Shown here piece by piece: positions 25,455 through 58,993 of a stretch of 64,000 nt of DNA. The notes below the pieces were generated by a model that did no database searches, had not been told where the DNA came from, and saw only the letters and a list, made by a program, of their open reading frames with translations. Origin of the DNA: an uncultured SAR116 cluster alpha proteobacterium (lineage in GTDB: Bacteria; Pseudomonadota; Alphaproteobacteria; Puniceispirillales; Marisalimonadaceae). The stretch is from positions 1,176 through 65,175 of the forward strand of contig CACMZO010000003.1 in NCBI GenBank assembly GCA_902618195.1, read 5' to 3'. Within the stretch, counting starts at the first letter, position 1. Each line of letters starts with the position of its first letter. The position numbers and the translations under genes are program-made.

Positions 25455-26867
25455 TTAAAATATTTTTCCTGGATTCATAATATTAAATGGGTCTAAAACT
25501 TTTTTAATATTTTTCATAAAATCAACTGAACTACCTAATTCTTCTACTAGATACTGTTTTTTTCCTTGTCCTATTCCATGTTCACCGGTGCATGTTCCAT
25601 CAAGTAAGATTGCTCTTTTTGACAAATCGTCAAGAAATTTATTTAAGTTATTAATTTCAATGTCATTTTTAGGATCTACCATTAATTGAACATGAAAATT
25701 CCCGTCCCCAACATGTCCAACAATATGACCAAATAAATCATATTTTGTTAAATCGTTTTGTGTTTTTTCAATGCATTCTGACAACTTTGAAATTGGCACA
25801 CAAACATCTGTTGCAATATATTCATGATCAGGCTTACAAGATTTGGTCGCATAATAGGCGTCATGTCTTGCTTTCCAAAGTTTATTTCTTTCTTCATTAT
25901 TGGAAGTTGATTCAAAATTGTTACCTCCAAAATCTGCTACAATTTCTGAAAATAACTCAGATTGCTCCTTTACAGACGATTCACTTCCGTGAAATTCAAG
26001 AAGTAATAGTGGTTCTTCTGGCAAATTTAGTTTAGAGTAGTTATTACAAGCCTTCACCTGTTCTTGATCTAATAATTCAATTCTTGCGACAGGAATACCA
26101 GCCTGAATTACCATAATTACTGCTTCAGTAGCGTCCTTTATTGAAGGAAAAGTTACTCTACCTCCTGCTATAACTTCAGGAATACCATATAATTTAATTG
26201 TAATTTCTGTAATAATACCAAGGGTGCCCTCAGATCCAACAATTAGTCTTGTTAAATCATAACCAGCTGAACTTTTTTTTGCTCTATTGGATGTTTTAAC
26301 TGTTTCACCATTTGGCATTACACATTTTAAAGAAATAACATTATCTTTCATTGTTCCATATCGTACTGCATTAGTGCCAGAAGCATTTGTGCTTGCCATA
26401 CCACCTAGAGATGCATTTGCACCTGGATCAATTGGGAAAAAAAGTCCTGTATCTCTTAGGTACACATTCAACTGCTCTCTTGTAACACCTGGTTGCACTA
26501 CTGCATAACCATCTTCGGGGGATACATGTAAAATTTTATTCATGTTATTAAGATCAATTGATATGCCTCCATATAAAGCATTAACATGCCCTTCTAGCGA
26601 CGATCCAACTCCAAAAGGAATTATAGGACATTTGTATTTTTGACAAATTTCAACTGTTTTTTTTACATCTATTTCGTTTTCTGCAAAAACAACTCCGTCA
26701 GGTAACTTTGAGGTATGTATTGTAGTCGTGTCAGTGTGTTGTTCCCTTACACTTTTAGATATAGAAAATTGCTGGCCAAATTCTTTTATCAATTCTATAA
26801 CAGCATCTTTTTTATTAAAATCAAAATTTAAATCAGATACTTCAAGTTCTTTTTCTAATACACTCAC
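25455..26867 (-). CDS. FAD-linked oxidase (D-lactate dehydrogenase (cytochrome) / GlcD-like), copy 2 (tandem paralogue)
   Basis: 470 aa, collinear with copy 1 over the full length. It carries the same motifs. Confidence 0.85.
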   Translation of the reverse strand: MSVLEKELEVSDLNFDFNKKDAVIELIKEFGQQFSISKSVREQHTDTTTIHTSKLPDGVVFAENEIDVKKTVEICQKYKCPIIPFGVGSSLEGHVNALYGGISIDLNNMNKILHVSPEDGYAVVQPGVTREQLNVYLRDTGLFFPIDPGANASLGGMASTNASGTNAVRYGTMKDNVISLKCVMPNGETVKTSNRAKKSSAGYDLTRLIVGSEGTLGIITEITIKLYGIPEVIAGGRVTFPSIKDATEAVIMVIQAGIPVARIELLDQEQVKACNNYSKLNLPEEPLLLLEFHGSESSVKEQSELFSEIVADFGGNNFESTSNNEERNKLWKARHDAYYATKSCKPDHEYIATDVCVPISKLSECIEKTQNDLTKYDLFGHIVGHVGDGNFHVQLMVDPKNDIEINNLNKFLDDLSKRAILLDGTCTGEHGIGQGKKQYLVEELGSSVDFMKNIKKVLDPFNIMNPGKIF

Positions 26868-30615: not shown

Positions 30616-31497
30616 TCAAATTTCTATAGGTAAGCTATCATCAGTTGCCCATTCACTCATAGAATTATCATAAATTTCAATATCATCATAACCCAATTGA
30701 AGTAAAACAAATGCATCTAATGATGCTGCTATACCACCACCACAATAGTTTAAAACACGTGAATTAATAGAAACACCTTTTTTTTTAAATACTTCTAAAC
30801 ATTCACTTGGAGTTTTTAAACATCCTTTTTTTATATCAGTTAACTCATGAAAAGGAATATTTAAACTTCCTGGAATTCTTCCAGGTCTACCATACCTTGG
30901 ATTTTCTCCATTATGTAAATCTTCTGTTAATGAGTTTAAGATCACGCAATGCTTTTTATTCATAGATTCTAACACTCTATTTTTATCAACAAAAATTGTA
31001 TCATCAATTTCTTTCTTAAAATGAGATTTTTCAAATTTGTTTATTTTACTTTCGGTAGGAAAATTATTTTTTTCCCATTCATAAAAACTACCATTCAAAA
31101 TGCTTAAATTTTTAAATCCTAAAACATATAACATCCACCAAATTCTAGTGGCCCATTGAAGTCCATTCCTTGAATATAATACTATGTGGAATTTATCACC
31201 TATGCCTAAATCTGAAAATTTTTCTGCGAGAGTGAAATAATCAGGAAGTGTAAACCTATACTTACTCGAATTATCTGACAAATCATTATGAAGATCTAAA
31301 TAAGCAGAATTTTTTATATGCGAAATTTGATATTGTTTAAACCCACTTTCTACAATGTAAGGTAATGAAGGGTTCTGATCTTGATAGTGTAAGTATGTAG
31401 TACAATCATAAATTCTAACTTTATCATCATCCAAGTTATTTTTTAACCATTCAAAAGATGATATATATTCTGGAAACTTCCAATATATTTCGTTCAT
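30616..31497 (-). CDS. Two-domain rhodanese sulfurtransferase (thiosulfate/3-mercaptopyruvate sulfurtransferase-like)
   Basis: 293 aa with tandem rhodanese halves. Active-site loop 'YCGGGIAAS'. 'RIPGSLNIPF'. Confidence 0.75.
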   Translation of the reverse strand: MNEIYWKFPEYISSFEWLKNNLDDDKVRIYDCTTYLHYQDQNPSLPYIVESGFKQYQISHIKNSAYLDLHNDLSDNSSKYRFTLPDYFTLAEKFSDLGIGDKFHIVLYSRNGLQWATRIWWMLYVLGFKNLSILNGSFYEWEKNNFPTESKINKFEKSHFKKEIDDTIFVDKNRVLESMNKKHCVILNSLTEDLHNGENPRYGRPGRIPGSLNIPFHELTDIKKGCLKTPSECLEVFKKKGVSINSRVLNYCGGGIAASLDAFVLLQLGYDDIEIYDNSMSEWATDDSLPIEI

Positions 31498-31520
31498 ACT
31501 TAAATATTATTTAAAATCAA

Positions 31521-32495
31521 TTAAGGTTTCAAATATAAACTTCCTCCACCCTTTCTTGACTCTAAAATATCATGTGCTTGAGAAACATTTTTAAGATCAA
31601 AACACATTTTATCTTCGAGTGAATAAACGTTATTTTTAAATTGATCAAATACTGACCTACTCATATTTTCAAACAAGCTTCTTTGATTTGTGTAGTGAAA
31701 TAATATAGGTCGAGAAATAGATAAAGATTTTTGAGCAAGTTTTGACATTTCTATGGGTAGAATTGGACCTGATGATTGACCAAAGTTGATCAAATAACCA
31801 CAATTAGAAGCTAAATCAAAAGATTGTTCAAAAGTATCAAAACCTACTGAATCATAAACTAGATCAAATCCATTACCTTTAGTTATTTCTTTAGAATATT
31901 CAATTAAATTATCATCATTGTAAACAAATGCATTTTTACATCCGTATGATTTTGCCAATTTTATTTTTTCTTGAGAACCAACTGTCCCTATTACAATTTT
32001 ACCAATAGAATTTAAATACTGACAAAGTAATCTTCCAACACCACCTGCAGCTGCTGTAACTAAAATTATTTTTTTATCCTTTAAACTGAAAACTTGCTCA
32101 GTTAACATATTAACCGTAAGAGCTCTTGAAAAATTTGTAGCCATAGTTGCATCATCAAGTTCATCGGGTATCTTGGCCACAATTTTGTGATTAATTACTC
32201 TATGGGAAGAGTAGGCCCCATAAGATCCCGTAATATATACAACTCTATCACCAACTCTTAAATTATTTACACTTTTTCCTAATTTTTCAATAATTCCAGA
32301 AGCTTCAACTCCTGGTATTCCAGGTAAATTTAATGTTTTATATAGTCCTGTTCTTACATAAATATCGTGAAAATGAATTCCAATTGCAGTTTGTTTTATT
32401 AAAATTTCATCATCAGCTGGATCATTTACAGTAATTTTTTCAATATTTAATACATCTGATTGACCATACATCCTTTGTACTATAGCTTCAGGCAT
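31521..32495 (-). CDS. Quinone oxidoreductase-like MDR (zeta-crystallin/Qor family)
   Basis: 324 aa. 'PGIPGVEASGII', 'VTAAAGGVGRLLCQ' and 'GGSLYLKP'. Confidence 0.8.
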   Translation of the reverse strand: MPEAIVQRMYGQSDVLNIEKITVNDPADDEILIKQTAIGIHFHDIYVRTGLYKTLNLPGIPGVEASGIIEKLGKSVNNLRVGDRVVYITGSYGAYSSHRVINHKIVAKIPDELDDATMATNFSRALTVNMLTEQVFSLKDKKIILVTAAAGGVGRLLCQYLNSIGKIVIGTVGSQEKIKLAKSYGCKNAFVYNDDNLIEYSKEITKGNGFDLVYDSVGFDTFEQSFDLASNCGYLINFGQSSGPILPIEMSKLAQKSLSISRPILFHYTNQRSLFENMSRSVFDQFKNNVYSLEDKMCFDLKNVSQAHDILESRKGGGSLYLKP

Positions 32496-32525
32496 AATTT
32501 ATTCTTTCATTATCTATTTTCATAT

Positions 32526-32948
32526 CTAATTAAAGTAATCTTTTATAGCAACACAACATTCTTCTAATGAGAAATGAACTTCAGTTGCATAAAATTCCAA
32601 GAAAGGATGCAATGTGTCTCCTTTTCCTCTCCATACAATTATAATTTTGTTTTTTGTATGTGCATGTGCAACTTCAGCCATGCTTCCCCAACGTTTACCT
32701 GGTTGATTTTCTCTCATGTCGCATAATAAAACTGTGCTATTAGAAATATCCTGTAAATCCATTTTTACTATTCGATTAACATTATTTTTATTGTTATAAT
32801 CACAGTGTTGTTCCCATCTTCTTGTTGGGTCAAGTGTTCTTATACCTTCTTTGGAAAGTAAATTAGTAGCTTGCTCTCTCCACTTCATCATTTCATTTTC
32901 TTTGTAACCTTCCATGCCACCACATAAATAAACGTAATTTTTATCCAT
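32526..32948 (-). CDS. Nucleoside 2-deoxyribosyltransferase-like protein (NDT/DNPH1-like Rossmannoid fold)
   Basis: 140 aa. 'VYLCGGMEG...WREQ', 'DLQDISNSTVLLCDM' and 'GSMAEVAHAHTKNKIIIV' fit the NDT-like pattern, with a Glu in the G-x-x-x-E-x-G/A-x-A segment. Confidence 0.5.
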   Translation of the reverse strand: MDKNYVYLCGGMEGYKENEMMKWREQATNLLSKEGIRTLDPTRRWEQHCDYNNKNNVNRIVKMDLQDISNSTVLLCDMRENQPGKRWGSMAEVAHAHTKNKIIIVWRGKGDTLHPFLEFYATEVHFSLEECCVAIKDYFN

Positions 32949-32966
32949 TATAAACCTATAAATTTA

Positions 32967-33608
32967 TTATAATTTCTTTCGATAATAGTGAATTTTTAAA
33001 TCTTCTTCACTTATTGGAGTTTGTAATAATCTCACAAAACTTTCTTGTTCACCAATTATTAAATATTTATCATCAACAGCTTCAATATACCTTCTAAGCC
33101 CTTCAGCTAGTTGAGCCTTTGCAGATCTAGGTAATTCATCTAATTCATTCATAAATCTTCTAACGCCATTAGCCACATAATTCGCAGGTGTATTTTTAGA
33201 TTCATGTAAACCTGGTGATAAAACAAATTCAGGTTTATCAACCTTATAAACTTCCTTTATTGCTTTTAAATATTTTTTTTCTGAAAAATCATTACCAAAA
33301 TAATGTTTAGCAACATCTTTTGTTAATTGAAGCCAATACGGCCATCTTAAAAATTTATAGCCAATATTTGTAAAATATTCAGCTCTTTCTTCATCTCTTT
33401 TTAATTTCCAAACGTTTTCATAATGATCGGGGCCTTCGTACTCCCAAATAATTTTCATTTTATCTGAGAAGCAATCAACCATATAATATTTTCTTTTATT
33501 ATTTGGATCATAGGCAAATCTTTTCTGACTACCCCATTCTCCATTAGGCCAAAAAATTTTAGCAGTAATTAAAAGATTTTTTTCTGTCATCTCACCTTTA
33601 GGTATCAA
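32967..33608 (-). CDS. Hypothetical protein with a Vsr/DUF559-like PD-(D/E)xK endonuclease-type core
   Basis: 'YYMVDCFSDKMKIIWEYEGPDHYE...KLKRDEERAEYFTNIGYKFLRWPY' resembles the D...E-x-D/E-G-x-x-H...RD..R...L...G...LR pattern of DUF559/Vsr-like nucleases. The C-terminal half is helical and unassigned. Confidence 0.4.
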   Translation of the reverse strand: MIPKGEMTEKNLLITAKIFWPNGEWGSQKRFAYDPNNKRKYYMVDCFSDKMKIIWEYEGPDHYENVWKLKRDEERAEYFTNIGYKFLRWPYWLQLTKDVAKHYFGNDFSEKKYLKAIKEVYKVDKPEFVLSPGLHESKNTPANYVANGVRRFMNELDELPRSAKAQLAEGLRRYIEAVDDKYLIIGEQESFVRLLQTPISEEDLKIHYYRKKL

Positions 33609-33610
33609 TT

Positions 33611-33904
33611 TTAGTTTCCTACACCATTTTTGTAATCAGGAACTAAATACATTAATGCTAATTTAGAATATTCTTCTAAATTGTTGTCAACAGAAATACC
33701 TTTTGCTTTTAATTTTTTTGGTCCATTTTCTATTTTTAATCTATTTTCCCATTCTCCTTGAATGCCAATCGTTATGAGTGTGGTAGTATCAGCAACATAC
33801 TTTATTAATGCTTTTGAGTGAATATTAATATCTAAGTTATCTGAGTTGCCTGGCCTAACAGGTTCATCCACAATTCCAATCAGTTTTGTCATAACATTTT
33901 CCAA
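33611..33904 (-). CDS. Hypothetical 97-aa protein. It resembles the N-terminus of a KAP-family P-loop NTPase with a degenerate Walker A, so it may be a gene remnant.
   Basis: 'DNLDINIHSKALIKYVADTTTLITIGIQGEWENRLK' parallels the KAP pattern D-x-L-x...A-x-x-L-x-x-[YI]...I-G-I-x-G-x-W-G-S-G-K-[ST]. The GSGK[ST] is replaced by ENRLK and the rest of the NTPase is absent. Confidence 0.3.
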   Translation of the reverse strand: MENVMTKLIGIVDEPVRPGNSDNLDINIHSKALIKYVADTTTLITIGIQGEWENRLKIENGPKKLKAKGISVDNNLEEYSKLALMYLVPDYKNGVGN

Positions 33905-33968
33905 ATTTGTTGAATTATTTTTTTATTTTTTTTATCATTAGTCAAGATTATTTATTTAGGAGAAGTCT

Positions 33969-34211
33969 ATGGGTATTCTAGATTGGATGGCTGCTGGATA
34001 TTTAGCTAAACGAGGAAGTAATAAATTAAACCCTCCACAGGTTACGGTACCTAATGGCTTTGAAATGAGAGCTTTAAAAGCAAAAGGCATGAATGAATAT
34101 ACTATTGTGTATTCTAAAAAAGGAAGTGGTTCAACTTCACAATTTACCATAAGTAGAAATACAAGATCAATGACTGGTGGTTGGAAATTTCATTGGCCTG
34201 AAAATTATTAG
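33969..34211 (+). CDS. Hypothetical small protein (80 aa), the only plus-strand gene in the island
   Basis: Strong SD AGGAGA (33958-33963) lies 5 nt upstream of ATG 33969. I recognise no motif. Confidence 0.5.
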   Translation: MGILDWMAAGYLAKRGSNKLNPPQVTVPNGFEMRALKAKGMNEYTIVYSKKGSGSTSQFTISRNTRSMTGGWKFHWPENY

Positions 34212-34214
34212 AAA

Positions 34215-34652
34215 TTATAACAGATAATTTAACACATCCTTCCAGGTTTTAAATTTTTCACTTCCAAATTGTATTAATTCACCTTTAAAATCTCCAGCTC
34301 CATTAGCCAACCTATCATCAATGAGGTAATCCCCAAAATTCAAGTTTTTGTTATGACTAAGAATTAATCGTTTGTATGCATACTTACCGAGATATCTCTT
34401 TACCCATAATAACTTGTCTGACCAAGCCGTTGGATTGTTCCATGGTGCAGTTGAAAGAATGTAAGTATCATATGTTTTAGACAATTTTTGATAAGATTCA
34501 ATAGCATTAGGCATAGGATTCATTAATGAAAAAATTCTTGGAACCTCATCGTAATTTTTAAGATATTTATTTTTATCCTTTTCTGACAAGTTGTTAATAC
34601 CAGATTTGAAGTCAACCAAAACATTGTCCATATCTACAAATAAAATTTTCAT
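34215..34652 (-). CDS. 5'(3')-deoxyribonucleotidase (NT5C-type HAD phosphatase)
   Basis: 'MKILFVDMDNVLVDF' carries the DxDxV/T HAD motif I typical of NT5C. 'YILSTAPW' and 'DYLIDDR' are motifs II and III. ATG 34652 sits 2 nt after the upstream TAG; the track start is TTG 34664. Confidence 0.7.
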   Translation of the reverse strand: MKILFVDMDNVLVDFKSGINNLSEKDKNKYLKNYDEVPRIFSLMNPMPNAIESYQKLSKTYDTYILSTAPWNNPTAWSDKLLWVKRYLGKYAYKRLILSHNKNLNFGDYLIDDRLANGAGDFKGELIQFGSEKFKTWKDVLNYLL

Positions 34653-34654
34653 CT

Positions 34655-35368
34655 CTAATTGCAATTATAATAAAATAAGGGTCCTCTTACCTCATGCGCA
34701 GGAAAATTTAATAACGAATAACCTCTAAATTTTTGCATTTTTTCTTCTTTGTATCCATTAAACTTATATCTTTTATTTTTAGTTGAAGATCTTGCTGTTT
34801 CCCAATTACATATTCTATAAATACCCTTTATTATACCGTTATAAACACCTATGCCATATTCTGCTTTTTTAGCTCTATTAATATTTAATACCCAATTACC
34901 TCTTATTTTGTTATATAGCATCTCTTCATCCATATCCTTGTTCCAAGCTTTATTAATTTTAAAACATACTGCAGAAATATTTTCTTTAAACTCTTCTCCT
35001 TTATAAATTTCATCAATTAAATTAATATCCATTATTCCAAATTTATCAGAATTTATTCCTTTAACTTTATTTGTTATTTGATCAACACCAAAAACATCTA
35101 TTAAGGTTGCTTCCAATAAAAAAGCCTCATCTTGATTTAAACCATGCCTAATAATTTCAACCTTAGGACCTCCACTTTTTTTTAATGAGTTAATAATATC
35201 AAATTTTGGATCTTTAATATCTAATTTAGATTTTTGGAAAAGATGAGAAAAAACTCTATTTCCTTTCCCCTTACCTATATAAAAGTAATTTTGGTTTTCT
35301 CCAGGGTACTTCAACCCGTATACATAATATTTTAATGCATTTATAGTTTTTGGTGAAAATTTTCTCAT
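34655..35368 (-). CDS. GIY-YIG nuclease-domain protein (COG3680-like) with an unassigned C-terminal domain
   Basis: 'YYVYGLKYPGENQNYFYIGKGKGNRVFSHL' is GIY-(x10)-YIG followed by the conserved Arg. Its ATG overlaps the upstream TGA (ATGA at 35365-35368). Confidence 0.65.
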   Translation of the reverse strand: MRKFSPKTINALKYYVYGLKYPGENQNYFYIGKGKGNRVFSHLFQKSKLDIKDPKFDIINSLKKSGGPKVEIIRHGLNQDEAFLLEATLIDVFGVDQITNKVKGINSDKFGIMDINLIDEIYKGEEFKENISAVCFKINKAWNKDMDEEMLYNKIRGNWVLNINRAKKAEYGIGVYNGIIKGIYRICNWETARSSTKNKRYKFNGYKEEKMQKFRGYSLLNFPAHEVRGPLFYYNCN

Positions 35369-36669
35369 ATATTTTTGGTTTTTGAAAAATTAATACCTGA
35401 TTTATTAAATAAATTAACAATTTCTACATACAAGTCAGTATTAGCCATAGTTACAAGTTCAAACAAATTCTCATTTGGGTTATCGGCAAATAAAGATTTT
35501 TTGTTTAAATAATATTCAAAAAATAAATTGTGAGAATAATCATGCATATCTCCAAATCTAATAGAATAATCTTCATCTATATGCTTGTAATCAATTGCAA
35601 TTTTATTAACTATTTGGATTGCTTCTTTTAATTTATTTGAGTGTAAATTAATATCTAATTTTAACTTTATACTCTCTTTTGAAAAATCTGATACTGCAAC
35701 ATTTTCAATGGGTTGTGATATAAACATTTTGTTTGGCAAGGCAGTTATGTTTCCGCTCAAGTCTTCAAGAAGTATAGACCTCAATCCTAATTTTTTTACA
35801 TTTCCCTCATGTCCTCCAATTTTAATTTTCTGACCAATTTCAAAAGGTCTTTGTAAATAAAGTAAAATACCTCCTATCAGATTTCCAATAAAATCTTGTG
35901 CTGCCAAAGCAACTGCCATCCCTCCAAGTCCAACTCCTGCTAAAATAGAAGTAGAATTGTATCCAGCGCTCTCCAAACTTAATGAAAGACCTATTGCCCA
36001 AATCAAAATTTGAAAAATTGTGCTTACAGCAGCTTCAACTGCCTCATTAACACTTGTGTCATCTCTTTGTAAATAAGGAATTATAATTAGTTCGTGTGAC
36101 ATTCTATAAAAAGTAGAGAGGAACCATGTTATAAATAAAATTATAACCGCCGGATAATAATTGTAATAATAGTCAATCCAGTTCCCTGACAATTCTAATG
36201 TATTTATTATGATATTTGAAGCAACTGTAATGAGAATAAGATAAACTGGTAATTGAAATTTTTTAAAATTTTCACCATATTGTACGTATCTAACTATTCT
36301 TGATAATCTTAAAAATCTTGCGAGCCTTAATAATCGTGTTAACCTAAATAATGGCGCCCAACCAAAATTTTCACTTAAATTTTCAACAAAAGGTTCTATA
36401 AGAATTGGAATACTGGCCAATACTATTACAAGATCAAATTTATTCCAATTGTCTTTTAAATACAACTTTATGCCTAAATTCCATACTTTAATAATTAACT
36501 CTATCAGAAAAAAAACAACACACCCATAATCAACCCAATTAATCCAATTTCCAGTTTTTTGTGTTAAATTTGGATCTAAGTCCAAAGCAATAAAAATAGA
36601 AGCATTAATTAATACAACTAGCATTACTAGTTTTTCATTAATTAAATAAGTTAAAATTGATTTGGTCAT
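35365..36669 (-). CDS. Voltage-sensor-like (S1-S4, Ion_trans-type) domain fused to an MscS-family mechanosensitive channel domain
   Basis: S3-like 'DNWNKFDLVIVLASIPIL'. S4 'LFRLTRLLRLARFLRLSRIVR' has Arg at every third position seven times. MscS core: 'GVGLGGMAVALAAQDFIGNLIGGILLYLQRPFEIGQKIKIGGHEGNVKKLGLRSILLEDLSGNITALPN'. Confidence 0.75.
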   Translation of the reverse strand: MTKSILTYLINEKLVMLVVLINASIFIALDLDPNLTQKTGNWINWVDYGCVVFFLIELIIKVWNLGIKLYLKDNWNKFDLVIVLASIPILIEPFVENLSENFGWAPLFRLTRLLRLARFLRLSRIVRYVQYGENFKKFQLPVYLILITVASNIIINTLELSGNWIDYYYNYYPAVIILFITWFLSTFYRMSHELIIIPYLQRDDTSVNEAVEAAVSTIFQILIWAIGLSLSLESAGYNSTSILAGVGLGGMAVALAAQDFIGNLIGGILLYLQRPFEIGQKIKIGGHEGNVKKLGLRSILLEDLSGNITALPNKMFISQPIENVAVSDFSKESIKLKLDINLHSNKLKEAIQIVNKIAIDYKHIDEDYSIRFGDMHDYSHNLFFEYYLNKKSLFADNPNENLFELVTMANTDLYVEIVNLFNKSGINFSKTKNI

Positions 36670-36671
36670 TT

Positions 36672-37304
36672 TTATTTTTTATGAGATTTAAAATTTGCTG
36701 AAATTATTCCTGCCGGCATTGCTATGATTCCAATCCCACATATGCCCACAATACCTGCAAAAACTTTTCCTAAAACTGTAATTGGATAGACATCTCCATA
36801 ACCTACAGTTGTTAATGTTGAAATTGCCCACCACATGGAACGTGGAATACTTCCAAATGCTTCAGGTTGAATGTTTCCTTCAAGTAGATAAATAAAAATT
36901 GAACTAGCAAATAGAATTAATAATGTAATTGCAAAACAAGCATAAAGTTGAAATTTTGAAGCAATTAATGCCTGAGAAAATAATCTCAATGACGGATTAT
37001 TCTGAATTAATTTTAACAATCGAAGCATCCTTAATAATCTAACTATCCGAAGAAGTAAAAAGTCTGATGAAAATGCAGTCATTAATGAAGGAATAATTGC
37101 TAATAAATCAATAATTGACATCGGACTAAAAATAAATTTTATTCTGCCCATAAATCCACTATATTTCTTAATTCTGCCAGCAACAATAATTCTCAAAAAG
37201 TACTCTAAAGTAAAAATTATTAAAAAAATTGTCTCAAAAATATTTAATGCATATTCATATTTATTTTTAAAAACATCTTCGGTCTCAAGAACGACCGAAA
37301 TCAA
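36672..37304 (-). CDS. Voltage-gated (Kv/KvAP-like) potassium channel. The N-terminus is unresolved (see finding).
   Basis: Selectivity filter 'TLTTVGYGDV', S4 'LLLRIVRLLRMLRLLKL' and S3 'SIIDLLAIIPSL'. The track start is a TTG inside the predicted S1 helix. The reading frame stays open upstream to 37412. Confidence 0.8.
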   Translation of the reverse strand: MISVVLETEDVFKNKYEYALNIFETIFLIIFTLEYFLRIIVAGRIKKYSGFMGRIKFIFSPMSIIDLLAIIPSLMTAFSSDFLLLRIVRLLRMLRLLKLIQNNPSLRLFSQALIASKFQLYACFAITLLILFASSIFIYLLEGNIQPEAFGSIPRSMWWAISTLTTVGYGDVYPITVLGKVFAGIVGICGIGIIAMPAGIISANFKSHKK

Positions 37305-37465
37305 AGATAAAATAATTACTGTGGTTATAAACTTATTAAGAAATGTACTTTTTTCATCATCATGAAATGATTTAAAAAGATATGAGAGAATTTTTTTAAT
37401 TTTTCTAAACCTCTAATTACAAAATATTAAAAATTTTTAATTTAAATCGAATTCCATAATATATT

Positions 37466-38932
37466 TCAAACATATGTTTGTAAAACTTTTAATAATTTAT
37501 ACATTGCTAATGTATCTAACTCACAATATTTAAGCGCATTATTAAAAAATATGGTCTCATTTTCTTTTTTTAATTCTCCCAGAAAATATTTTTCAAAATT
37601 AATTGATACTTCCATTCCACCTTGGATCTCCAGGTCATCATAACTTTCATTAGTAAACGTAGGTAATACTGCTTTGATCGACGCAGACCCATTTTGTTTT
37701 GGTGAATATAAATGTCTTGATCTAAAGGGTCTTAAAAGGTCAATCATTCTCTCATTAATCTTCAATAAATCATGTTTTATTGCAGGAAAAATATCTGATA
37801 GGGAAGAAATTACATTTTTTTCAAAACTTTGATTGTATACAATTACTGACCCAGTTTTTTTTATACTTTTCAACAATGTTTCTGCAAATTCTAATCTAAA
37901 ATCTTTTTTGTCTTTACTAATATATTCAACATGTTTTATCTCACTATTTTCATTTTCTTGAATATGCAATGAAAACTGAAATGGAATATTTTCATAAGGT
38001 TTTGAGTTTTTAAAAATTGGTATTGCTGGTCCAAAAGTTTCAAAATCTAAAAAATAATATGGAAAGATTAAAGTATCTAAAAACTTTTTAATTTCTCTCT
38101 TATTAACAAATATATCACCAGATAAATATGAGTTGACATCCACTAATTTATTACCTTTGGGATAGTCTTTTATATCAAGTTCTTTTATATCAATTGAATT
38201 ATTATTTCTATGAACTTCTTCTGCTTTTTTTGCAGAAAAAACATTAAAAATATTATATTTTGGAAGACCTTTCCAACAGTATTCTTTAAACTGACATTCC
38301 TTACAATGTGAACCAATATCTACAATCGGTTCATTTTTAACTGACAAAGATTCAATTAATTCTGAAATTTGTAAACTTATTATATTCCCTTTATGCAAAA
38401 CTTTTTTAGTAACATCAGATTTTAGAAATAATTTATTTACATCAATTTGATCACCTCTTTGATAATTTTTGTTAAGGTGAAGAACTGATAATTTTGTTAC
38501 ATTTAAACCTAATGATTTAAATACATGGTTTTGAAAACTTAAGTCTTCAACATGATAATCTTTGACACCTGTGGAACTTTTAACTTCTATTAACTCCCAA
38601 CTATCATTATCTTTTATCAAAATATCTGCTAATGCAAAAATACCTTCAGCTTTGTTAAAACCTACACCCTCATAAATTAATTTTCCACCATCATTAATAT
38701 ATTCAAAAGTTTCTTTAAAGGCATTTTCAACTTCATAGTAAGGAGATTTTGGTTGAAAACCTTTACCAAAATATTCTCTAGCTAATAAACCAACTTTATT
38801 ACCTATTTCAAATCTGTAATCTTTAAAATCATCACCTTTACAAAGTTCAGTTTTATGTAATGACAACCACAAAGACTTTTTGCAATTTAAACCATCTAAA
38901 TAATTTGACTTTGATAAAGAATTTTTCATCAT
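37466..38932 (-). CDS. DUF2779-type protein: N-terminal Cas4/RecB-like PD-(D/E)xK nuclease with a Cys cluster, plus a C-terminal DEDD/RNase-H-like exonuclease-like domain
   Basis: 'SKSNYLDGLNCKKSLWL'. 'LADILIKDNDSWELIEVKSS' is D...E-x-K. 'HCKECQFKEYC' is CX2CX5C, with an N-terminal Cys as in Cas4. C-terminal motifs: 'YFLDFETF', 'VYNQSFEKNV' and 'YCELDTLAMYKL'. Confidence 0.6.
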   Translation of the reverse strand: MMKNSLSKSNYLDGLNCKKSLWLSLHKTELCKGDDFKDYRFEIGNKVGLLAREYFGKGFQPKSPYYEVENAFKETFEYINDGGKLIYEGVGFNKAEGIFALADILIKDNDSWELIEVKSSTGVKDYHVEDLSFQNHVFKSLGLNVTKLSVLHLNKNYQRGDQIDVNKLFLKSDVTKKVLHKGNIISLQISELIESLSVKNEPIVDIGSHCKECQFKEYCWKGLPKYNIFNVFSAKKAEEVHRNNNSIDIKELDIKDYPKGNKLVDVNSYLSGDIFVNKREIKKFLDTLIFPYYFLDFETFGPAIPIFKNSKPYENIPFQFSLHIQENENSEIKHVEYISKDKKDFRLEFAETLLKSIKKTGSVIVYNQSFEKNVISSLSDIFPAIKHDLLKINERMIDLLRPFRSRHLYSPKQNGSASIKAVLPTFTNESYDDLEIQGGMEVSINFEKYFLGELKKENETIFFNNALKYCELDTLAMYKLLKVLQTYV

Positions 38933-39015
38933 ATATTTGTATTACATAAAAATTTAAGAGTTATTAATATAAGATTGAAGCAGTAACTGATGCTTATCAA
39001 ATCATTTTCAATAAA

Positions 39016-39423
39016 TTAATCTTCATTAAACCTTTGATTATTTAAATGTTTTTGAAATACAAGAGGTTCATCAATATATTTTAAAATTATTTTGCCTGAT
39101 CCTGTGCCACTAAGGTCAACGGTTCCAAAGCCAAATATACGACCTAAAAGGCTTTGCGTAAGATTAACCTCTTCAATTCTATCAAGAGAAATCTCTTCAG
39201 TATCTCTTCTTATCCATCCTATTTTTTGAATATATCTTTCATTAGTTAAAACTCTTTCAGTTGTCCATTTGTTAATCATCATTTTTAAAAATATAAAAAT
39301 TCCAATTAAAACAATTCCTAATACTAATAGATATAAAAAAGCAATTAAACTATATGTCCAATGAAATTCAACTCTATAAATTATAGTTTCATTTTTTCCA
39401 ATGGTTTTTTCTACATAACTCAT
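39016..39423 (-). CDS. Membrane protein with a bacterial PH domain (bPH_2 / YdbS-YdbT-like)
   Basis: 135 aa. A two-TM hairpin ('YSLIAFLYLLVLGIVLIGIFIFL') is followed by 'TERVLTNERYIQKIGWIRRDTEEISLDRIEEVNLTQSLLGRIFGFGTVDL', typical of bPH_2. Confidence 0.65.
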   Translation of the reverse strand: MSYVEKTIGKNETIIYRVEFHWTYSLIAFLYLLVLGIVLIGIFIFLKMMINKWTTERVLTNERYIQKIGWIRRDTEEISLDRIEEVNLTQSLLGRIFGFGTVDLSGTGSGKIILKYIDEPLVFQKHLNNQRFNED

Positions 39424-39449
39424 AAATTTTATTTACTTACTTATAGAAA

Positions 39450-39767
39450 TTATCTTCCAAAAAACCACCACACTAAGGCTGTTGTAGGGCCTAAACTTGA
39501 AGTTCCTACAGCTTTTGCAGCGTCCTTAAGATCAATTAATTTTTTACCTCCGGATGAAGACCCTTCTCTAATACTTCTGCCATCTCTTATGTTACACAAA
39601 CACTTGCCTCCCGACGAAGAACCTTCTCTAATTTCATTACTTCTCTTAATGTTGCCAAGACATTTTCCTCCAGAACTGCTGCCTTCTCTTAACTCATCAC
39701 TTCGGTTCAAATTTCCAACCGTTGTGGACCCTCTTTTAATTAAATTGCCATCAAATTTTATCGACAT
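39450..39767 (-). CDS. Small repeat protein with four ~20-aa units ('4-fold beta-flower'-like) and a short hydrophobic C-terminal tail
   Basis: Strong SD AAGGAG 6 nt upstream of ATG 39767. Units: FDGNLIKRGSTTVGNL / NRSDELREGSSSGGKCLGNI / KRSNEIREGSSSGGKCLCNI / RDGRSIREGSSSGGKKLIDL. Tail: 'GPTTALVWWFFGR'. Confidence 0.6.
   Translation of the reverse strand: MSIKFDGNLIKRGSTTVGNLNRSDELREGSSSGGKCLGNIKRSNEIREGSSSGGKCLCNIRDGRSIREGSSSGGKKLIDLKDAAKAVGTSSLGPTTALVWWFFGR
39528..39755 (-). repeat. Intragenic tandem repeat, about 60-bp period, 3 full units plus 1 shorter unit (a coding repeat)
   Basis: Units are conserved at the protein level with synonymous divergence. The Ser-Ser-Ser triplet is encoded as tct tca tcc, tct tcg tcg and agc agt tct. 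Confidence 0.8.
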
Positions 39768-39864
39768 ATTTACTCCTTTAATTCTAAATTGATTATTGTA
39801 TCAGTATAAAATATTATGAAAAAATAATAAATTAATTTGATATAGATTTTAAGGAACTATTATA

Positions 39865-41388
39865 ATGAATGTTGATGATGTACTTACTATAAAACTTAAT
39901 TCTAATGATAATGTTGCAACAGCGTTTAAAAATATTTCAAAGGGAGAAACTACCCAAAACATTAAAGCTGAAAATAATATACCAAAAGGTCATAAAATAG
40001 CTTTATCTAAGATCTTGAAAGGTGAAAAAATTATTAAATATGATCAAATTATTGGTCTAGCAAGAAATGATATAAATATAGGCGAACATGTTCATATAGA
40101 AAATACTGAGTTCAAATCAACAGAACATGATTATGAGTTTTCAACATCAATAAGGTTGCCAAATTTTGTTCCAGAAAGTAAAAGACCTTCTTTTAACGGT
40201 TTTAAAAGACCTAATGGTCAAGTAGGAACAAGAAATTATATTGGCATTTTAACTTCCGTCAATTGTTCTGCAACTGCAGCTAGGAATATTGCAAATGCTT
40301 TTGATGATAATATACTCTCACAATACCCTAACGTTGATGGAGTTGTATCTTTTACACATGGTACAGGTTGTGGAATGGCAGACTCTGGAGATGGCTTTGA
40401 AGCTTTACAAAGAGTTTTATTAGGCTATATCCAACATCCTAACTTAGCTGGGGTTCTTTTGATAGGATTAGGTTGTGAAGCCAACCAAATTAAGTTTTTA
40501 CTTGACGCTTATAACTTAAATGAAAATCCTTTTTTTCAAACAATGACTATACAAGAAATGGGAGGGTTAAGAAAAACAATTGAAGAAGGTATTAAGCGAA
40601 TACATTCAATGTTACCAGAAATCAATCAATTAAAAAGATCTCCTCAATCAGTTGAACATCTCTCACTAGCACTTCAGTGTGGTGGTTCAGACGCATGGTC
40701 AGGCATTACTTCAAATCCTGCCCTTGGTCATGCGGCAGATCTTTTAGTAAAAAATGGAGGTACTGCAGTTTTAGCAGAAACGCCTGAAATTTATGGAGCT
40801 GAACACTTGCTAACTAGGAGAGCAATAAACAAAACTGTTGGTGATAAATTAGTAGATAGAATTCTTTGGTGGGAAGATTATGTCAGTAGAAATAAAGGAA
40901 GTCTTAACAATAATCCTTCTCCTGGAAATAAGGCAGGTGGGCTTACAACTATATTAGAAAAATCTTTAGGTGCTGCTGCAAAAGGAGGAACTACGCCATT
41001 AAATGATGTACTTCTTTATGCCGAAAAAGCAAAATCTAAAGGTTTTTTATTCATGGATAGTCCTGGCTACGATCCAGCATCAGTTACTGGGCAAATAGCT
41101 ACAGGCTGTAATCTTGTAAGTTTCACAACTGGAAGAGGTTCTGCTTTTGGTTCAAAACCATCACCATCTATAAAAATAGCTACTAATACTGAAATGTATG
41201 AACATATGAAAGAAGATATGGACGTTAATGCAGGAAAAGTTGTTACAAATAATGAAAGTATTGAAACAGTTGGAAGTGAAATATTTGACCTGTTAGTTAG
41301 GGTAGCTTCTGGGGAAAAATCAAAGTCTGAAAAACAAGGTCTAGGTGATTTAGAATTTGTACCATGGCAAATTGGAGCAACGATGTAG
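39865..41388 (+). CDS. UxaA-family sugar-acid dehydratase (altronate / galactarate dehydratase-like)
   Basis: 507 aa. N-terminal SAF domain ('DNVATAFKNISKGE', 'IPKGHKIAL'). C-terminal UxaA motifs 'VNCSATAA', 'HGTGCG', 'GCEANQ' and 'TTGRGS'. Confidence 0.8.
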   Translation: MNVDDVLTIKLNSNDNVATAFKNISKGETTQNIKAENNIPKGHKIALSKILKGEKIIKYDQIIGLARNDINIGEHVHIENTEFKSTEHDYEFSTSIRLPNFVPESKRPSFNGFKRPNGQVGTRNYIGILTSVNCSATAARNIANAFDDNILSQYPNVDGVVSFTHGTGCGMADSGDGFEALQRVLLGYIQHPNLAGVLLIGLGCEANQIKFLLDAYNLNENPFFQTMTIQEMGGLRKTIEEGIKRIHSMLPEINQLKRSPQSVEHLSLALQCGGSDAWSGITSNPALGHAADLLVKNGGTAVLAETPEIYGAEHLLTRRAINKTVGDKLVDRILWWEDYVSRNKGSLNNNPSPGNKAGGLTTILEKSLGAAAKGGTTPLNDVLLYAEKAKSKGFLFMDSPGYDPASVTGQIATGCNLVSFTTGRGSAFGSKPSPSIKIATNTEMYEHMKEDMDVNAGKVVTNNESIETVGSEIFDLLVRVASGEKSKSEKQGLGDLEFVPWQIGATM

Positions 41389-51029: not shown

Positions 51030-51032
51030 TTT

Positions 51033-52031: not shown

Positions 52032-52048
52032 TTATAACGAGATTATGT

Positions 52049-52645: not shown

Positions 52646-52650
52646 TATAA

Positions 52651-53184: not shown

Positions 53185-53187
53185 ACC

Positions 53188-53727: not shown

Positions 53728-53774
53728 TTTCCAATTAAGTTGTTGTAAATAAAAAATTATAATACTTTATAATT

Positions 53775-54929: not shown

Positions 54930-54932
54930 TAG

Positions 54933-56918: not shown

Positions 56919-57198
56919 AACCAAAATACTTATAAAAAGTTATGTAAACATAATTATAGTTTTTTTTGCTATTCTTTTATCTGAATTTATTTCATCCAAA
57001 AGTTTTAGTTTTGAAGGCAACCAAAAAATTGAGACCTTTTATCAGTCAAAAATAATTTTAAGAGATATCTTTCAAAATAATCAATATACTTTTTATTGTA
57101 GTTGCTCATATGAACACAAAAAACCAATCTTCAAAGCATGCGGTTATAAACCTTATAAAAATTTTAAAAGAGCAAATCGTATTGAATGGGAACATGTA

Positions 57199-57687: not shown

Positions 57688-57745
57688 TAATAGAAAAATT
57701 CTTAGAAACCTTGATTTTATTTATTCTTTTTATCACAATAATTTA

Positions 57746-58978: not shown

Positions 58979-58993
58979 TTATGAGGTAAATCG

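What the first reader, a model, noticed from the sequence alone, without database searches (positions are those of the whole stretch)
32526..39767. Accessory 'conflict-type' island: three nuclease folds, two nucleotide-directed enzymes, a KAP-like remnant and membrane/voltage-sensor proteins
Eleven genes, ten of them on the minus strand, have no link to the surrounding catabolic genes. In order they are:
- an NDT/DNPH1-like protein;
- a DUF559/Vsr-like nuclease-fold protein;
- a KAP-NTPase-like fragment;
- an orphan small ORF;
- an NT5C deoxyribonucleotidase;
- a GIY-YIG nuclease;
- a VSD-MscS fusion;
- a Kv channel;
- a Cas4-like+DEDD DUF2779 protein;
- a bPH2 membrane protein;
- a 4x repeat protein.

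This mixture of nucleases, P-loop NTPase remnants, nucleotide-depleting enzymes and membrane proteins is what defence islands typically look like. No canonical system (RM, CBASS, Thoeris, Gabija, Zorya, CRISPR and so on) is recognisable by eye. There is no integrase, transposase, or capsid/terminase gene, so it is not an obvious prophage.
Basis: partly seen in the sequence, partly recalled or inferred. Interest (0 to 1): 0.7.

Follow-up and report, generated by a model that had tools for sequence, protein, structure and literature searches.

The report
Strain-variable anti-phage island with ion channels
This 7.3-kb block is a strain-variable island in a low-GC SAR116 ocean bacterium, built around a nuclease that cuts phage DNA carrying modified cytosine; it is an ordinary kind of defence island, but it carries several uncharacterised partner genes and an unusual voltage-sensor/MscS channel fusion.

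Summary

- **Accessory status.** Sister genome L001 has an empty site, so the island is 32496-39776. L007 and L111 carry different versions at the same place. The block has the lowest GC and the most deviant tetranucleotide usage in the window.
- **Old alleles.** Synonymous divergence from L007 is about 3-17 times that of most flank genes, yet dN/dS stays at 0.03-0.23. These are old, functional alleles swapped in by recombination.
- **One correction.** A canonical system is present. g6 belongs to the PD-T4-3/CMoRE family (PADLOC 1.5e-34, PDB 9u75 3e-22), a type IV nuclease that cuts 5hmC/glucosyl-5hmC DNA.
- **g3.** It is an in-frame internal-deletion remnant of a ~670-aa PifA/QatA-like KAP NTPase.
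- **Recurring cluster.** g2 (Vsr-like) and g6 co-occur in 11 of 11 distinct locus groups from several marine lineages. DUF2779, the 80-aa g4, full-length KAP and PvuRts1I-type enzymes often accompany them.
- **Ion channels.** Kv, VSD-MscS, pLGIC-like or Castor/RCK channels repeatedly travel with this cluster.

Verdict: a real defence-type flexible island and a new member of a known kind. Whether it works as one integrated system is unproven.

The parts
32496..39776 (.). Flexible genomic island (whole insert relative to the empty site)
   Evidence: blastn/tblastn against L001: homology stops at 32495 (QOR1 start codon) and resumes at 39777, and in L001 only 115 bp separate the two flank genes. 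Lowest GC and highest tetranucleotide deviation in the window.
32526..32948 (-). g1: stand-alone NDT/DNPH1-like protein (140 aa)
   Evidence: PF15891 3.5e-8, above the gathering score. Weak match to solved NDTs, with the catalytic Glu column aligned. 84-89% identical copies in L081, L083, L096, L111 and L166.
32967..33608 (-). g2: Vsr/DUF559-like endonuclease-fold protein with a helical C-terminal domain (213 aa)
   Evidence: PF04480 26.8 bits, above GA 20.6. Invariant D45...E56-x-E58-G-P-x-H62 in 32 homologues. AF2 pLDDT 92; Foldseek top hits are R2 RLE, Vsr 1vsr, I-Bth0305I and PvuRts1I, all with weak E-values. Found together with a g6 homologue in 11/11 distinct locus groups.
33611..33904 (-). 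g3: in-frame internal-deletion remnant of a ~670-aa KAP (PifA/QatA-like) NTPase (97 aa, or 93 aa from the ATG)
   Evidence: Relatives P0057, P0059 and P0060 read ...GIQGEWGSGKTS (intact Walker A, PF07693), while g3 reads ...GIQGEW|ENRLK. Its N-terminal half matches the N-terminus of the 670-aa KAP gene of L173 and its C-terminal half matches the C-terminus of that gene. The L173 gene scores PADLOC PifA 2e-34 and QatA 4e-28.
33969..34211 (+). g4: 80-aa orphan protein, the only plus-strand gene
   Evidence: The plus-strand frame is conserved full-length down to 42-46% identity. dN/dS 0.066 against L007. No Pfam, PHROG or NCBIfam hit. Only 22 representative clusters in 1.84e9 proteins, all ~43-123 aa. 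Lies directly upstream of VSD-MscS in L101, L104, L112, L125 and L127.
34215..34664 (-). g5: NT5C-type 5'(3')-deoxyribonucleotidase (149 aa, or 145 aa from ATG 34652)
   Evidence: PF06941 5.5e-14. PDB 4l57 1.6e-9, with HAD motif I (DMDNV) aligned to DMDGV. phrog_420 7e-21.
34655..35368 (-). g6: CMoRE/PD-T4-3-family GIY-YIG modification-dependent restriction endonuclease (237 aa)
   Evidence: PADLOC PD-T4-3 1.5e-34 over profile positions 4-213/256. PDB 9u75/9u7u 3e-22 over residues 4-191. GIYxY-YIG tyrosines Y15, Y17 and Y30 are conserved, as are R38 and E86, which align with the conserved Arg and Glu of the CMoRE active-site motifs.
35365..36669 (-). g7: voltage-sensor domain fused to an MscS-type channel (434 aa)
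   Evidence: Ion_trans S1-S4 1.1e-16 plus MS_channel 1.1e-15. S4 arginines R109, R118, R121 and R124 invariant, and R112 in at least 90% of 18 homologues. F54-x-x-E57 and D79 are also invariant. Foldseek MscS 5aji 1.2e-15 for the C-terminal ~270 aa. Its stop overlaps the g6 start by 4 bp.
36672..37304 (-). g8: voltage-gated K+ channel (210 aa)
   Evidence: Ion_trans 1e-36 and Ion_trans_2 6e-15. TTVGYGD selectivity filter and an R/K-every-third S4 visible in the translation. Lies 2 bp upstream of g7. The Kv-then-VSD-MscS pair recurs in L081, L083 and L096-L100 (GC 28-45%).
37466..38932 (-). g9: DUF2779 protein, Cas4-like PD-(D/E)xK nuclease plus DEDD-type 3'-5' exonuclease (488 aa)
   Evidence: PF11074 1.2e-43, Cas_Cas4 4.7e-5, RNase_H_2 5e-6. 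PADLOC Cas4 3.9e-10. The translation shows C17 plus the C-x2-C-x5-C cysteines and an FLDFET DxE motif. No solved relative by sequence.
39016..39423 (-). g10: bPH_2 membrane-flanked PH-domain protein (135 aa)
   Evidence: PF03703 8.4e-14. phrog_3707 4.7e-27. Absent from the L001 empty site. Homologues sit next to island versions in L081, L091 and L175.
39450..39767 (-). g11: 105-aa protein with 20-aa REGSSSGGK repeats and a hydrophobic C-terminus
   Evidence: TRF period 60 x 2.2. Bflower_3 24.5 bits, below GA. A related 112-aa protein in L081 and L166 scores 37 bits, above GA. 99% identical in L007, dN/dS 0.03.
31521..32495 (-). Left flank: NADPH:quinone reductase-like gene (QOR1)
   Evidence: NF008024 1.9e-77. 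89% identical in L001, directly abutting the empty site. It is itself variable together with SseA: both are absent in L002-L006 and L111.
39865..41388 (+). Right flank: UxaA/galactarate-dehydratase-like gene
   Evidence: TIGR03248 2.3e-114. 95-99% identical in L001 and L007.

Best explanation
Positions 32496-39776 are a flexible (strain-variable) genomic island at a recombination hotspot between sugar-acid catabolism genes. The host is a low-GC SAR116 marine bacterium.

**Backbone: an anti-phage nuclease cluster.** Marine lineages exchange this cluster and reshuffle its order.
- g6 is a CMoRE/PD-T4-3-type GIY-YIG type IV restriction endonuclease. By homology it should cut DNA containing 5-hydroxymethyl- or glucosyl-hydroxymethyl-cytosine, that is, the DNA of hypermodified phages.
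- g2, a Vsr-like endonuclease-fold protein, accompanies g6 in every locus seen.
- The 80-aa g4 and the Cas4-DEDD nuclease g9 usually accompany them. Both are probably further DNA-processing or defence components.
- g3 is the dead remnant of a PifA/QatA-like KAP NTPase that is intact in other versions.

**Nucleotide enzymes.** g5 (dNMP 5'-nucleotidase) and g1 (NDT/DNPH1-like) most likely destroy deoxynucleoside monophosphates, possibly the modified ones released from degraded phage DNA. That would keep them from being reused by the phage or misincorporated by the host.

**Ion channels.** The Kv plus VSD-MscS pair was inserted immediately upstream of g6-g5, giving a tight same-strand array g8-g7-g6-g5. 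The channels are co-travelling cargo whose link to defence is not established.

**Shown:** accessory status, family assignments, the KAP deletion, recurrent co-localisation, old alleles under purifying selection.

**Inferred:** substrate specificity of g6, the roles of g1, g2, g4, g5 and g9, and co-transcription.
For: **Accessory status**
- Empty site in L001; variant islands in L007 and L111; identical architecture in L168 at 99.86% nucleotide identity.
- The island is the compositional outlier of the window.

**Old alleles under purifying selection**
- dS for g2, g5, g6 and g10 is 1.2-2.1, and 0.84 for g9. Four of the five flank genes have dS 0.12-0.33; QOR2 is 0.73.
- dN/dS is 0.03-0.23 for all genes compared.

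**Family assignments**
- g6: PADLOC PD-T4-3 1.5e-34 and PDB 9u75 3e-22. The GIYxY-YIG tyrosines are conserved, as are the Arg and Glu that align with the CMoRE active-site motifs.
- g3 is an internally deleted KAP. Full-length relatives score PifA 2e-34 and QatA 4e-28.
- PvuRts1I-type enzymes (mREase_II, 1e-86 to 1e-88) sit in the L087 and L171 versions.

**Recurrence of the cluster**
- g2 and a g6 homologue co-occur in 11/11 distinct locus groups, including four g2-anchored groups. The loci span GC 28-47%.
- DUF2779 is present in 8 of those 11 and g4 in 8 of 11.

**Active sites**
- The active-site motifs of g5, g9 and g2 are intact.
Against: - Only g6 belongs to an experimentally validated defence family.
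- g6 lacks the acidic autoinhibitory loop that most CMoRE proteins have. Its C-terminal 45 residues are not aligned to the solved protein.
- CMoRE systems were reported as single-component, so the partners may be mere neighbours.
- PADLOC finds nothing for g1, g2, g5, g7, g8, g10 or g11.
- 12 of 20 VSD-MscS neighbourhoods of at least 4 kb contain no nuclease-cluster gene.
- Recurrent co-localisation could reflect block transfer rather than cooperation.
- No phage with hmC DNA is known for this host.
- The nucleotide-sanitation role of g1 and g5 is pure inference.
Confidence: 0.62

Rival explanations
1. Mixed-cargo flexible island. Only g6 is a defence gene. The other genes are unrelated niche-adaptive or selfish cargo: ion channels and transporters for ionic or osmotic homeostasis, nucleotide salvage enzymes, stray nucleases. 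They accumulate at the same recombination hotspot and hitch-hike together.
For: - Island versions differ mainly in membrane transport cargo: Kv/VSD-MscS here, pLGIC-like pair and CitMHS in L007, Castor/RCK and CitMHS in L166.
- 12 of 20 VSD-MscS loci lack any nuclease partner.
- PADLOC is silent for nine genes.
- Flexible islands carrying transporters are well known in streamlined marine Alphaproteobacteria (PMC10734472).
Against: - The same rare families stay within a few kb of each other across loci of GC 28-47% and 43-89% identity, in at least three different flanking contexts. These families are g2, g4 (22 clusters in 1.84e9), the g6 subfamily and DUF2779.
- Other versions add further known defence genes rather than metabolic ones.
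Confidence: 0.22
2. One integrated membrane-to-nuclease system. The Kv and VSD-MscS channels (with g4) sense the membrane depolarisation or ion flux caused by phage genome injection. They then trigger or potentiate the nucleases and dNMP-degrading enzymes, or cause abortive ion leakage.
For: - The g8-g7-g6-g5 array is tight: a 2-bp gap, a 4-bp overlap, then a 2-bp gap or 10-bp overlap. It recurs in L111 at 96-99% identity.
- Channels of four different families repeatedly lie next to the nuclease cluster: VSD-MscS in L087, L091, L100, L104 and L115; pLGIC-like in L007 and L170; Castor/RCK in L166 and L091.
- g4 lies directly upstream of VSD-MscS in five loci.
- The voltage sensor looks functional.
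Against: - L007 has g2, g4, g5, g6 and g9 without any VSD-MscS or Kv.
- Many VSD-MscS genes stand alone.
- Gene order and strand relations are not conserved.
- No known defence system uses a voltage sensor, and there is no experimental support of any kind.
Confidence: 0.1
3. Decayed cargo region of a phage satellite or prophage (PICI-like element) that lost its mobility genes.
For: - In the 'Rickettsiales' MAG loci L170-L172 and L176 the same cluster (g2, DUF2779, CMoRE-like, PvuRts1I-like, KAP) lies between Phage_AlpA and Terminase_2 genes.
- L175 has a phage integrase 5 kb from g2.
- g5, g6, g8 and g10 hit PHROG families.
- Jumbo phages carry g6-like 'homing nucleases' at 30-36% identity.
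Against: - No integrase, AlpA, terminase or capsid gene lies in or next to the island.
- No flanking direct repeats and no adjacent tRNA.
- No VSD-MscS relative and no close g6 relative in IMG/VR contigs.
- Boundaries coincide exactly with gene ends of the flanks, as expected for homologous-recombination replacement.
Confidence: 0.08
4. Housekeeping DNA-repair and nucleotide-metabolism genes (Vsr-type repair, nucleotide pool control) plus ordinary ion channels.
For: The Vsr, NT5C and NDT folds also serve housekeeping roles in other organisms.
Against: - The block is absent from close relatives that keep both flanks.
- Composition is deviant.
- Allele divergence far exceeds the flanks.
Confidence: 0.02

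Closest known systems
CMoRE / PD-T4-3 (single-gene type IV restriction; PMC12923530; PDB 9U75, 9U7U)
   Same: g6 matches the PADLOC PD-T4-3 profile over 210 of 256 positions and the solved proteins over residues 4-191. It keeps the GIYxY-YIG tyrosines, the catalytic Arg/Glu equivalents, and the region of the C-terminal sensing domain.
   Different: - About 30% identity only.
- It lacks the run of acidic residues that forms the autoinhibitory loop.
- Its last ~45 residues are unaligned.
- It is never alone: a Vsr-like g2 homologue is present in 11/11 loci, usually with g4 and DUF2779, whereas CMoRE systems were described as single-component.
Defence islands / flexible genomic islands of streamlined marine bacteria (e.g. 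HIMB59 fGIs, PMC10734472)
   Same: Same chromosomal position in related strains with different gene content. Deviant composition, divergent alleles, and defence genes among the cargo.
   Different: - Small: 7.3 kb.
- No tRNA, integrase or repeats at the borders.
- Cargo combines nucleases with ion channels.
- This particular island and cluster were not found in the searchable literature.
PifA / QatA KAP-family NTPases
   Same: Full-length relatives of g3 (L171, L173) score PifA 7e-31 to 2e-34 and QatA 4e-28 to 4e-30. g3 keeps their N- and C-termini.
   Different: In the window the whole NTPase body, including the Walker A lysine, is deleted, so the gene cannot be a working NTPase. No qatBCD genes are present.
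PvuRts1I/AbaSI family 5hmC-dependent restriction enzymes
   Same: Present in sister versions of the cluster (L087, L171; mREase_II 1e-86 to 1e-88). This points to the same target class as CMoRE.
   Different: Absent from the window. g2 shares only the general nuclease fold with them.
MscS-family channels with extra N-terminal modules (YnaI, MscK, bCNG) and VSD-only or VSD-coupled proteins (Hv1, VSP)
   Same: g7 has the MscS TM3, beta and alpha-beta domains (Foldseek 1e-15). It also has a canonical S1-S4 sensor with a charge-transfer centre.
   Different: A voltage sensor fused to an MscS pore was not found in the literature searched. The family is small and known only from mostly marine metagenomes and metagenome-derived assemblies: about 42 clusters at 90% identity.
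DUF2779 (PF11074) Cas4-DEDD fusion proteins
   Same: g9 is a typical member (1.2e-43) with Cas4-like cysteines and a DEDD DxE motif.
   Different: The family is uncharacterised. An immunity role has only been suggested (PMC13621843). Here it shows neighbourhood linkage to a type IV restriction enzyme.

Membership tests
CMoRE / PD-T4-3 (g6) | Significant match to the family profile and to the solved protein | tested here: met
   PADLOC PDLC04031 1.5e-34, profile positions 4-213/256. PDB 9u75 3e-22 and 9u7u 4.9e-22.
CMoRE / PD-T4-3 (g6) | GIYxY-YIG motif with three tyrosines plus catalytic Arg and Glu | tested here: met
   Y15, Y17 and Y30 align to Y17, Y19 and Y31 of CMoRE. R38 and E86 align to the conserved Arg and Glu (alignment; residues defined).
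CMoRE / PD-T4-3 (g6) | Negatively charged autoinhibitory loop (present in most, not all, members) | tested here: not met
   CMoRE has ...AAADDDDLLSNK. g6 has a shorter SKLDIKDPKFD with no acidic run.
CMoRE / PD-T4-3 (g6) | C-terminal modification-sensing domain | tested here: inconclusive
   The alignment continues through g6 residues 100-191 (chain 110-197 of 262). The last 45 residues are unaligned, and the 5hmC contact is a main-chain atom, so it cannot be checked by sequence.
CMoRE / PD-T4-3 (g6) | Cleaves 5hmC/5ghmC DNA and protects against T-even-type phages | not testable with these tools
   Needs biochemistry and a phage challenge.
CMoRE / PD-T4-3 (g6) | Single-component system | tested here: inconclusive
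   A g2 homologue accompanies a g6 homologue in 11/11 locus groups. Co-localisation does not prove dependence.
Flexible genomic island | Same chromosomal position in related genomes with presence/absence or different content | tested here: met
   Empty in L001; variant in L007 and L111; identical in L168.
Defence island | Two or more recognised defence systems clustered | tested here: inconclusive
   In the window there is one intact system (g6) and one dead remnant (g3). Sister versions have three: CMoRE-like, PvuRts1I-like and PifA/QatA-like KAP.
KAP P-loop NTPase (g3) | Walker A GxxGxGK[ST] and the NTPase core | tested here: not met
   g3 reads GIQGEWENRLK where relatives read GIQGEWGSGKTS. 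About 575 internal residues are missing. No PF07693 hit.
KAP P-loop NTPase (g3) | Homology to the termini of full-length family members | tested here: met
   62% identity over 52 aa with the N-terminus and 32% over 44 aa with the C-terminus of the 670-aa L173 KAP gene.
Vsr/DUF559 endonuclease fold (g2) | Profile match, conserved D...ExDGxxH-like motif and nuclease fold | tested here: met
   PF04480 above GA. D45, E56, E58, G59 and H62 invariant or nearly so. Foldseek 1vsr prob 0.92, although E = 0.05 and no hit reaches E <= 0.001.
MscS family (g7) | TM3 pore helix plus beta and alpha-beta cytoplasmic domains | tested here: met
   PF21088 and PF00924. Foldseek 5aji 1.2e-15.
Voltage-sensor domain (g7, g8) | S1-S4 with periodic S4 arginines and the F/E/D charge-transfer centre | tested here: met
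   Ion_trans 1.1e-16. R109, R118, R121, R124, F54, E57 and D79 are invariant, and R112 is in at least 90% of 18 sequences. Voltage gating itself is not testable here.
Retron with NDT-like effector (considered for g1) | Reverse transcriptase and msr/msd ncRNA next to the NDT-like gene | tested here: not met
   No RT domain in any island protein. No Rfam hit other than a distant tRNA.
PICI / prophage | Integrase, AlpA, replication or terminase genes, and att repeats | tested here: not met
   None in the window island. AlpA and Terminase_2 flank the cluster only in L170-L172 and L176.

The most novel reading that the evidence does not exclude
The ion channels are not passengers. A voltage-sensor-bearing channel pair (Kv plus the undescribed VSD-MscS fusion, with the orphan g4) would form the sensing or effector arm of a multi-gene anti-phage system. 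It would couple phage-induced membrane depolarisation to a CMoRE-type nuclease, Vsr-like and Cas4-DEDD nucleases and dNMP-destroying enzymes. In other versions pLGIC-like or Castor/RCK channels would fill the same slot. That would be the first immune system gated by membrane voltage.
Probability: 0.1. Interest if true: 0.9.

Novelty: new member of a known kind. Interest (0 to 1): 0.5.

Why it matters
- **Uncultured host.** It documents how a streamlined ocean bacterium known only from single cells arms itself against phages. The arsenal is a small, recombination-swapped island whose characterised parts all target hydroxymethylated or glucosylated cytosine DNA. This hints that such hypermodified phages matter in this habitat.
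- **Test candidates.** It supplies a short list of tightly linked but uncharacterised families (g2, g4, DUF2779, NT5C/NDT) as candidates for defence-system testing. It also suggests that the marine branch of CMoRE may not be single-component.
- **New channel design.** It exposes a voltage sensor fused to an MscS pore, which is of independent interest to ion-channel biophysics.

Tried and rejected
- **Border repeats.** Direct and inverted repeats at the island borders gave only chance-level AT-rich matches.
- **tRNA or ncRNA.** Only tRNA-Ser at 63678, about 24 kb away, was found.
- **Promoter and terminator scan.** There were fewer hits than in shuffles, so it was not used to define operons.
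- **Viral contig scans.** A1 (VSD-MscS) and g6 against IMG/VR returned nothing.
- **Phage GenBank tblastn.** g8 has only five weak hits. g6 hits jumbo-phage 'homing nucleases' at 30-36% identity. This is too distant to call the island phage-derived.
- **NCBIfam.** It gave no names for g1-g6 or g11.
- **PDB sequence search.** g9 returned nothing.
- **HIMB59/AEGEAN-169 assignment.** I first suspected the host was HIMB59/AEGEAN-169. Record titles and PMC8547437 instead place its relatives (AAA536-G10) in the low-GC SAR116 subclade.
- **Positive selection.** Rejected as the cause of island divergence. dS is raised, not dN/dS.
- **pLGIC identity of the L007 proteins.** It rests on a marginal GLIC match (E ~0.004) and no Pfam hit, so it is only labelled 'pLGIC-like'.
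- **L176.** The extra 2 kb showed no integrase.

Full report
**1. What is there**

The window is a ~30% GC, tightly packed genome segment. Its closest public relatives are single-cell genomes titled 'SAR116 cluster', plus SCGC AAA536-G10. These form the low-GC, SAG-only SAR116 subclade described in PMC8547437.

The eleven ORFs are present as described. Pfam reproduces nearly every domain call:
- g1: NDT-like.
- g2: DUF559.
- g5: NT5C.
- g6: GIY-YIG.
- g7: Ion_trans (S1-S4) plus MscS.
- g8: Kv channel.
- g9: DUF2779, Cas4-like and RNase H-like.
- g10: bPH_2.

The flanks are sugar-acid catabolism genes. On the left lie KDG kinase, 2-hydroxyacid dehydrogenase, an IlvD/Edd-type dehydratase, a sulfurtransferase and a quinone reductase. 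On the right lie a UxaA/galactarate-dehydratase-like gene, an FAH hydrolase, a second quinone reductase, an aminotransferase and an SDR.

**2. It is an accessory, hypervariable island**

I anchored on the right-flank dehydratase in 185,579 species genomes and mapped the window's proteins onto the closest loci.

| Locus | Flank identity | What sits at the site |
|---|---|---|
| L001 (AH-287-A08) | 81-95% aa | Empty site; QOR1 and the dehydratase are 115 bp apart |
| L007 (AG-426-A06) | 91-99% aa | CitMHS/TrkA_C transporter, g2, g4, g5, g6, g9, two paralogous 680/673-aa membrane proteins, g10, g11; no g1, g3, g7 or g8 |
| L111 (Tara contig) | IlvD-like 92% aa | g7-g6-g5-g4, a g2 stub, then g1 abutting the IlvD-like gene directly |
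| L002-L006 | 81% aa | IlvD-like gene next to the dehydratase; SseA and QOR1 also missing |
| L168 (another SAG) | 99.86% nt over 20.3 kb | The window's exact architecture |

- By blastn, homology to L001 stops at 32495 and resumes at 39777.
- The island has the lowest GC (0.276) and the largest tetranucleotide distance in the 64 kb.
- No repeats, tRNA or mobility genes mark its borders.

**3. Old alleles, not fast evolution**

I compared the window with L007.
- g2, g5, g6 and g10 have dS 1.2-2.1, and g9 has 0.84.
- Four of the five flank genes have dS 0.12-0.33; QOR2 is 0.73.
- dN/dS is 0.03-0.23 for all twelve genes compared.

The island genes compared, including the orphan g4 (0.066) and the repeat protein g11 (0.033), are therefore functional genes under purifying selection. 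The island versions are anciently diverged alleles brought in by recombination. g4 (dS 0.32) and g11 (dS 0.12) share the flanks' recent history, so the island is itself a mosaic.

**4. One canonical defence gene after all**

- PADLOC assigns g6 to PD-T4-3 at 1.5e-34.
- That system has since been characterised as CMoRE. It is a GIY-YIG type IV restriction endonuclease specific for 5hmC/5ghmC DNA, with a C-terminal sensing domain (PMC12923530).
- g6 aligns to the solved proteins at 3e-22 over residues 4-191.
- It keeps the diagnostic GIYxY-YIG tyrosines (Y15, Y17, Y30). It also keeps R38 and E86, which align with the conserved Arg and Glu of the CMoRE motifs.
- It lacks the acidic autoinhibitory loop.

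**5. The KAP remnant is real**

g3 has no Pfam hit. Its close relatives, however, read ...TPITIGIQGEWGSGKTSLLNS... and carry PF07693, whereas g3 reads ...ITIGIQGEW|ENRLKIENG....

In L173 a 670-aa KAP gene matches g3's first half with its N-terminus and g3's second half with its C-terminus. So g3 is an in-frame deletion of about 575 residues that removes the whole NTPase. The intact genes score as PifA (2e-34) and QatA (4e-28) in PADLOC.

**6. The gene set recurs elsewhere, shuffled**

I anchored on g7 and independently on g2. After removing near-duplicates this gave 32 distinct locus groups with GC from 28% to 65%.

- g2 and a g6 homologue co-occur in 11 of 11 groups (GC 28-47%), including all four g2-anchored ones.
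- DUF2779 is present in 8 of those 11, and g4 in 8 of 11.
- Full-length or remnant KAP is present in 4 groups.
- A PvuRts1I-type modification-dependent enzyme (mREase_II, 1e-86 to 1e-88) is present in 2 groups.
- Order and strand vary, and so do the flanks: guanylate cyclases in L173, Phage_AlpA and Terminase_2 in L170-L172 and L176, an integrase in L175.
- The g4 family is tiny, with 22 clusters among 1.84e9 representatives. Repeated proximity therefore cannot be chance, although it may reflect block transfer.

**7. Nucleotide enzymes**

- g5 has the HAD DxDxV motif and matches cytosolic and mitochondrial 5'(3')-deoxyribonucleotidases.
- g1 is an NDT/DNPH1-like fold with the catalytic Glu column conserved.
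- NDT-like proteins are mentioned in the retron defence literature (papers listed; their role as retron effectors is from my own knowledge). There is no RT or ncRNA here.

My inference is that these two enzymes destroy dNMPs, plausibly the modified ones released when hmC DNA is degraded. That would deny them to the phage and keep them out of host DNA, which would otherwise become a target for g6. This step is untested.

**8. Channels**

- g8 is a canonical Kv channel with a TVGYGD filter.
- g7 joins a complete voltage sensor to an MscS core. Four S4 arginines are invariant and a fifth (R112) is nearly so. The F54-x-x-E57/D79 charge-transfer centre is also invariant. The C-terminal core matches MscS in Foldseek at 1e-15.
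- About 42 clusters share this architecture, all from metagenomes or metagenome-derived assemblies, mostly marine. None are in IMG/VR.
- Two literature searches found no description of such a fusion.
- In the window g8, g7, g6 and g5 are packed with a 2-bp gap or short overlaps.
- Other island versions carry other channel types in comparable positions:
  - pLGIC-like proteins in L007 and L170 (marginal GLIC match; 43% identical to each other);
  - Castor/RCK proteins in L166 and L091.
- Against a functional link, 12 of 20 VSD-MscS neighbourhoods of at least 4 kb have no nuclease partner, and L007 has the nucleases without g7/g8.

**9. Verdict**

The thing is a defence-type flexible genomic island, which is a known kind. 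Its core is a CMoRE-family type IV restriction gene with conserved, uncharacterised partners and a dead KAP NTPase.

The claim that all eleven genes form one system is not supported. The channel link is the most intriguing open point.

Interest is moderate. The island supplies concrete candidates for defence-gene testing and an undescribed channel architecture, but nothing that overturns current concepts.

Noticed in passing
window 35365-36669 (g7); alignment A1; loci L081-L127: A voltage-sensor domain (S1-S4, with invariant S4 arginines and a charge-transfer centre) fused to a full MscS channel core. It is a small family known only from metagenomes and metagenome-derived assemblies, mostly marine (~42 clusters). 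No description was found in two literature searches. It is often preceded by a Kv channel or by the 80-aa g4 gene.
   Followed up: partly
L007 4897-6939 (-) and 7134-9155 (+); L170 5774-7840: Paralogous ~680-aa membrane proteins with a large N-terminal domain. The C-terminal part matches the pentameric channel GLIC only marginally (E ~0.004), and there is no Pfam hit. A 43%-identical homologue sits beside the same nuclease cluster in a 'Rickettsiales' MAG.
   Followed up: partly
L166 1850-3733: Another island version carries a Castor/Pollux-type protein and a Slo-like RCK protein where the window has Kv/VSD-MscS. Homologues also lie next to VSD-MscS and DUF2779 in L091.
   Followed up: partly
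window 30616-32495: The left-flank genes SseA-like sulfurtransferase and QOR1 are themselves variable. They are absent in L002-L006 and L111, where the IlvD-like gene directly abuts the hotspot. The recombination hotspot may therefore start at 30592.
   Followed up: partly
window 51000-59000: Second compositional outlier of the window (tetranucleotide distance up to 14, GC ~0.28). It holds mixed metabolic genes plus an EamA transporter (56037-56918) and an N-terminally short Endonuclease I ORF (57199-57687). EamA and Endonuclease_1 genes also lie beside island versions in L166 and L175.
   Followed up: partly
L093 791-6837: Upstream of a stand-alone VSD-MscS gene lie two DUF4407 proteins, an OmpA/MotB-like protein with LysM and SH3 domains (weak ZorB hits) and a 593-aa unknown. 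This may be another membrane-associated system.
   Followed up: no
L175 8523-9024: The CMoRE-like gene next to a g2 homologue is broken into three frame-shifted pieces (a pseudogene). It lies about 5 kb from a phage integrase and a bPH_2 gene.
   Followed up: no
window 39450-39767 (g11); L081 9047-9385; L166 1491-1829: Small 'beta-flower' repeat proteins (PF21786) recur in island versions, next to NT5C in L081 and L166. Their function is unknown.
   Followed up: partly
window 24034-25446 and 25455-26867: Two tandem paralogous FAD-binding oxidase genes, ~73% nucleotide identity to each other, seen as secondary blastn hits.
   Followed up: no
window 33969-34211 (g4) vs neighbours: Mosaic history inside the island. 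Against L007, g4 has dS 0.32 while the adjacent g2 and g5 have dS 1.4-2.1. This implies recombination breakpoints within a few hundred bases.
   Followed up: partly
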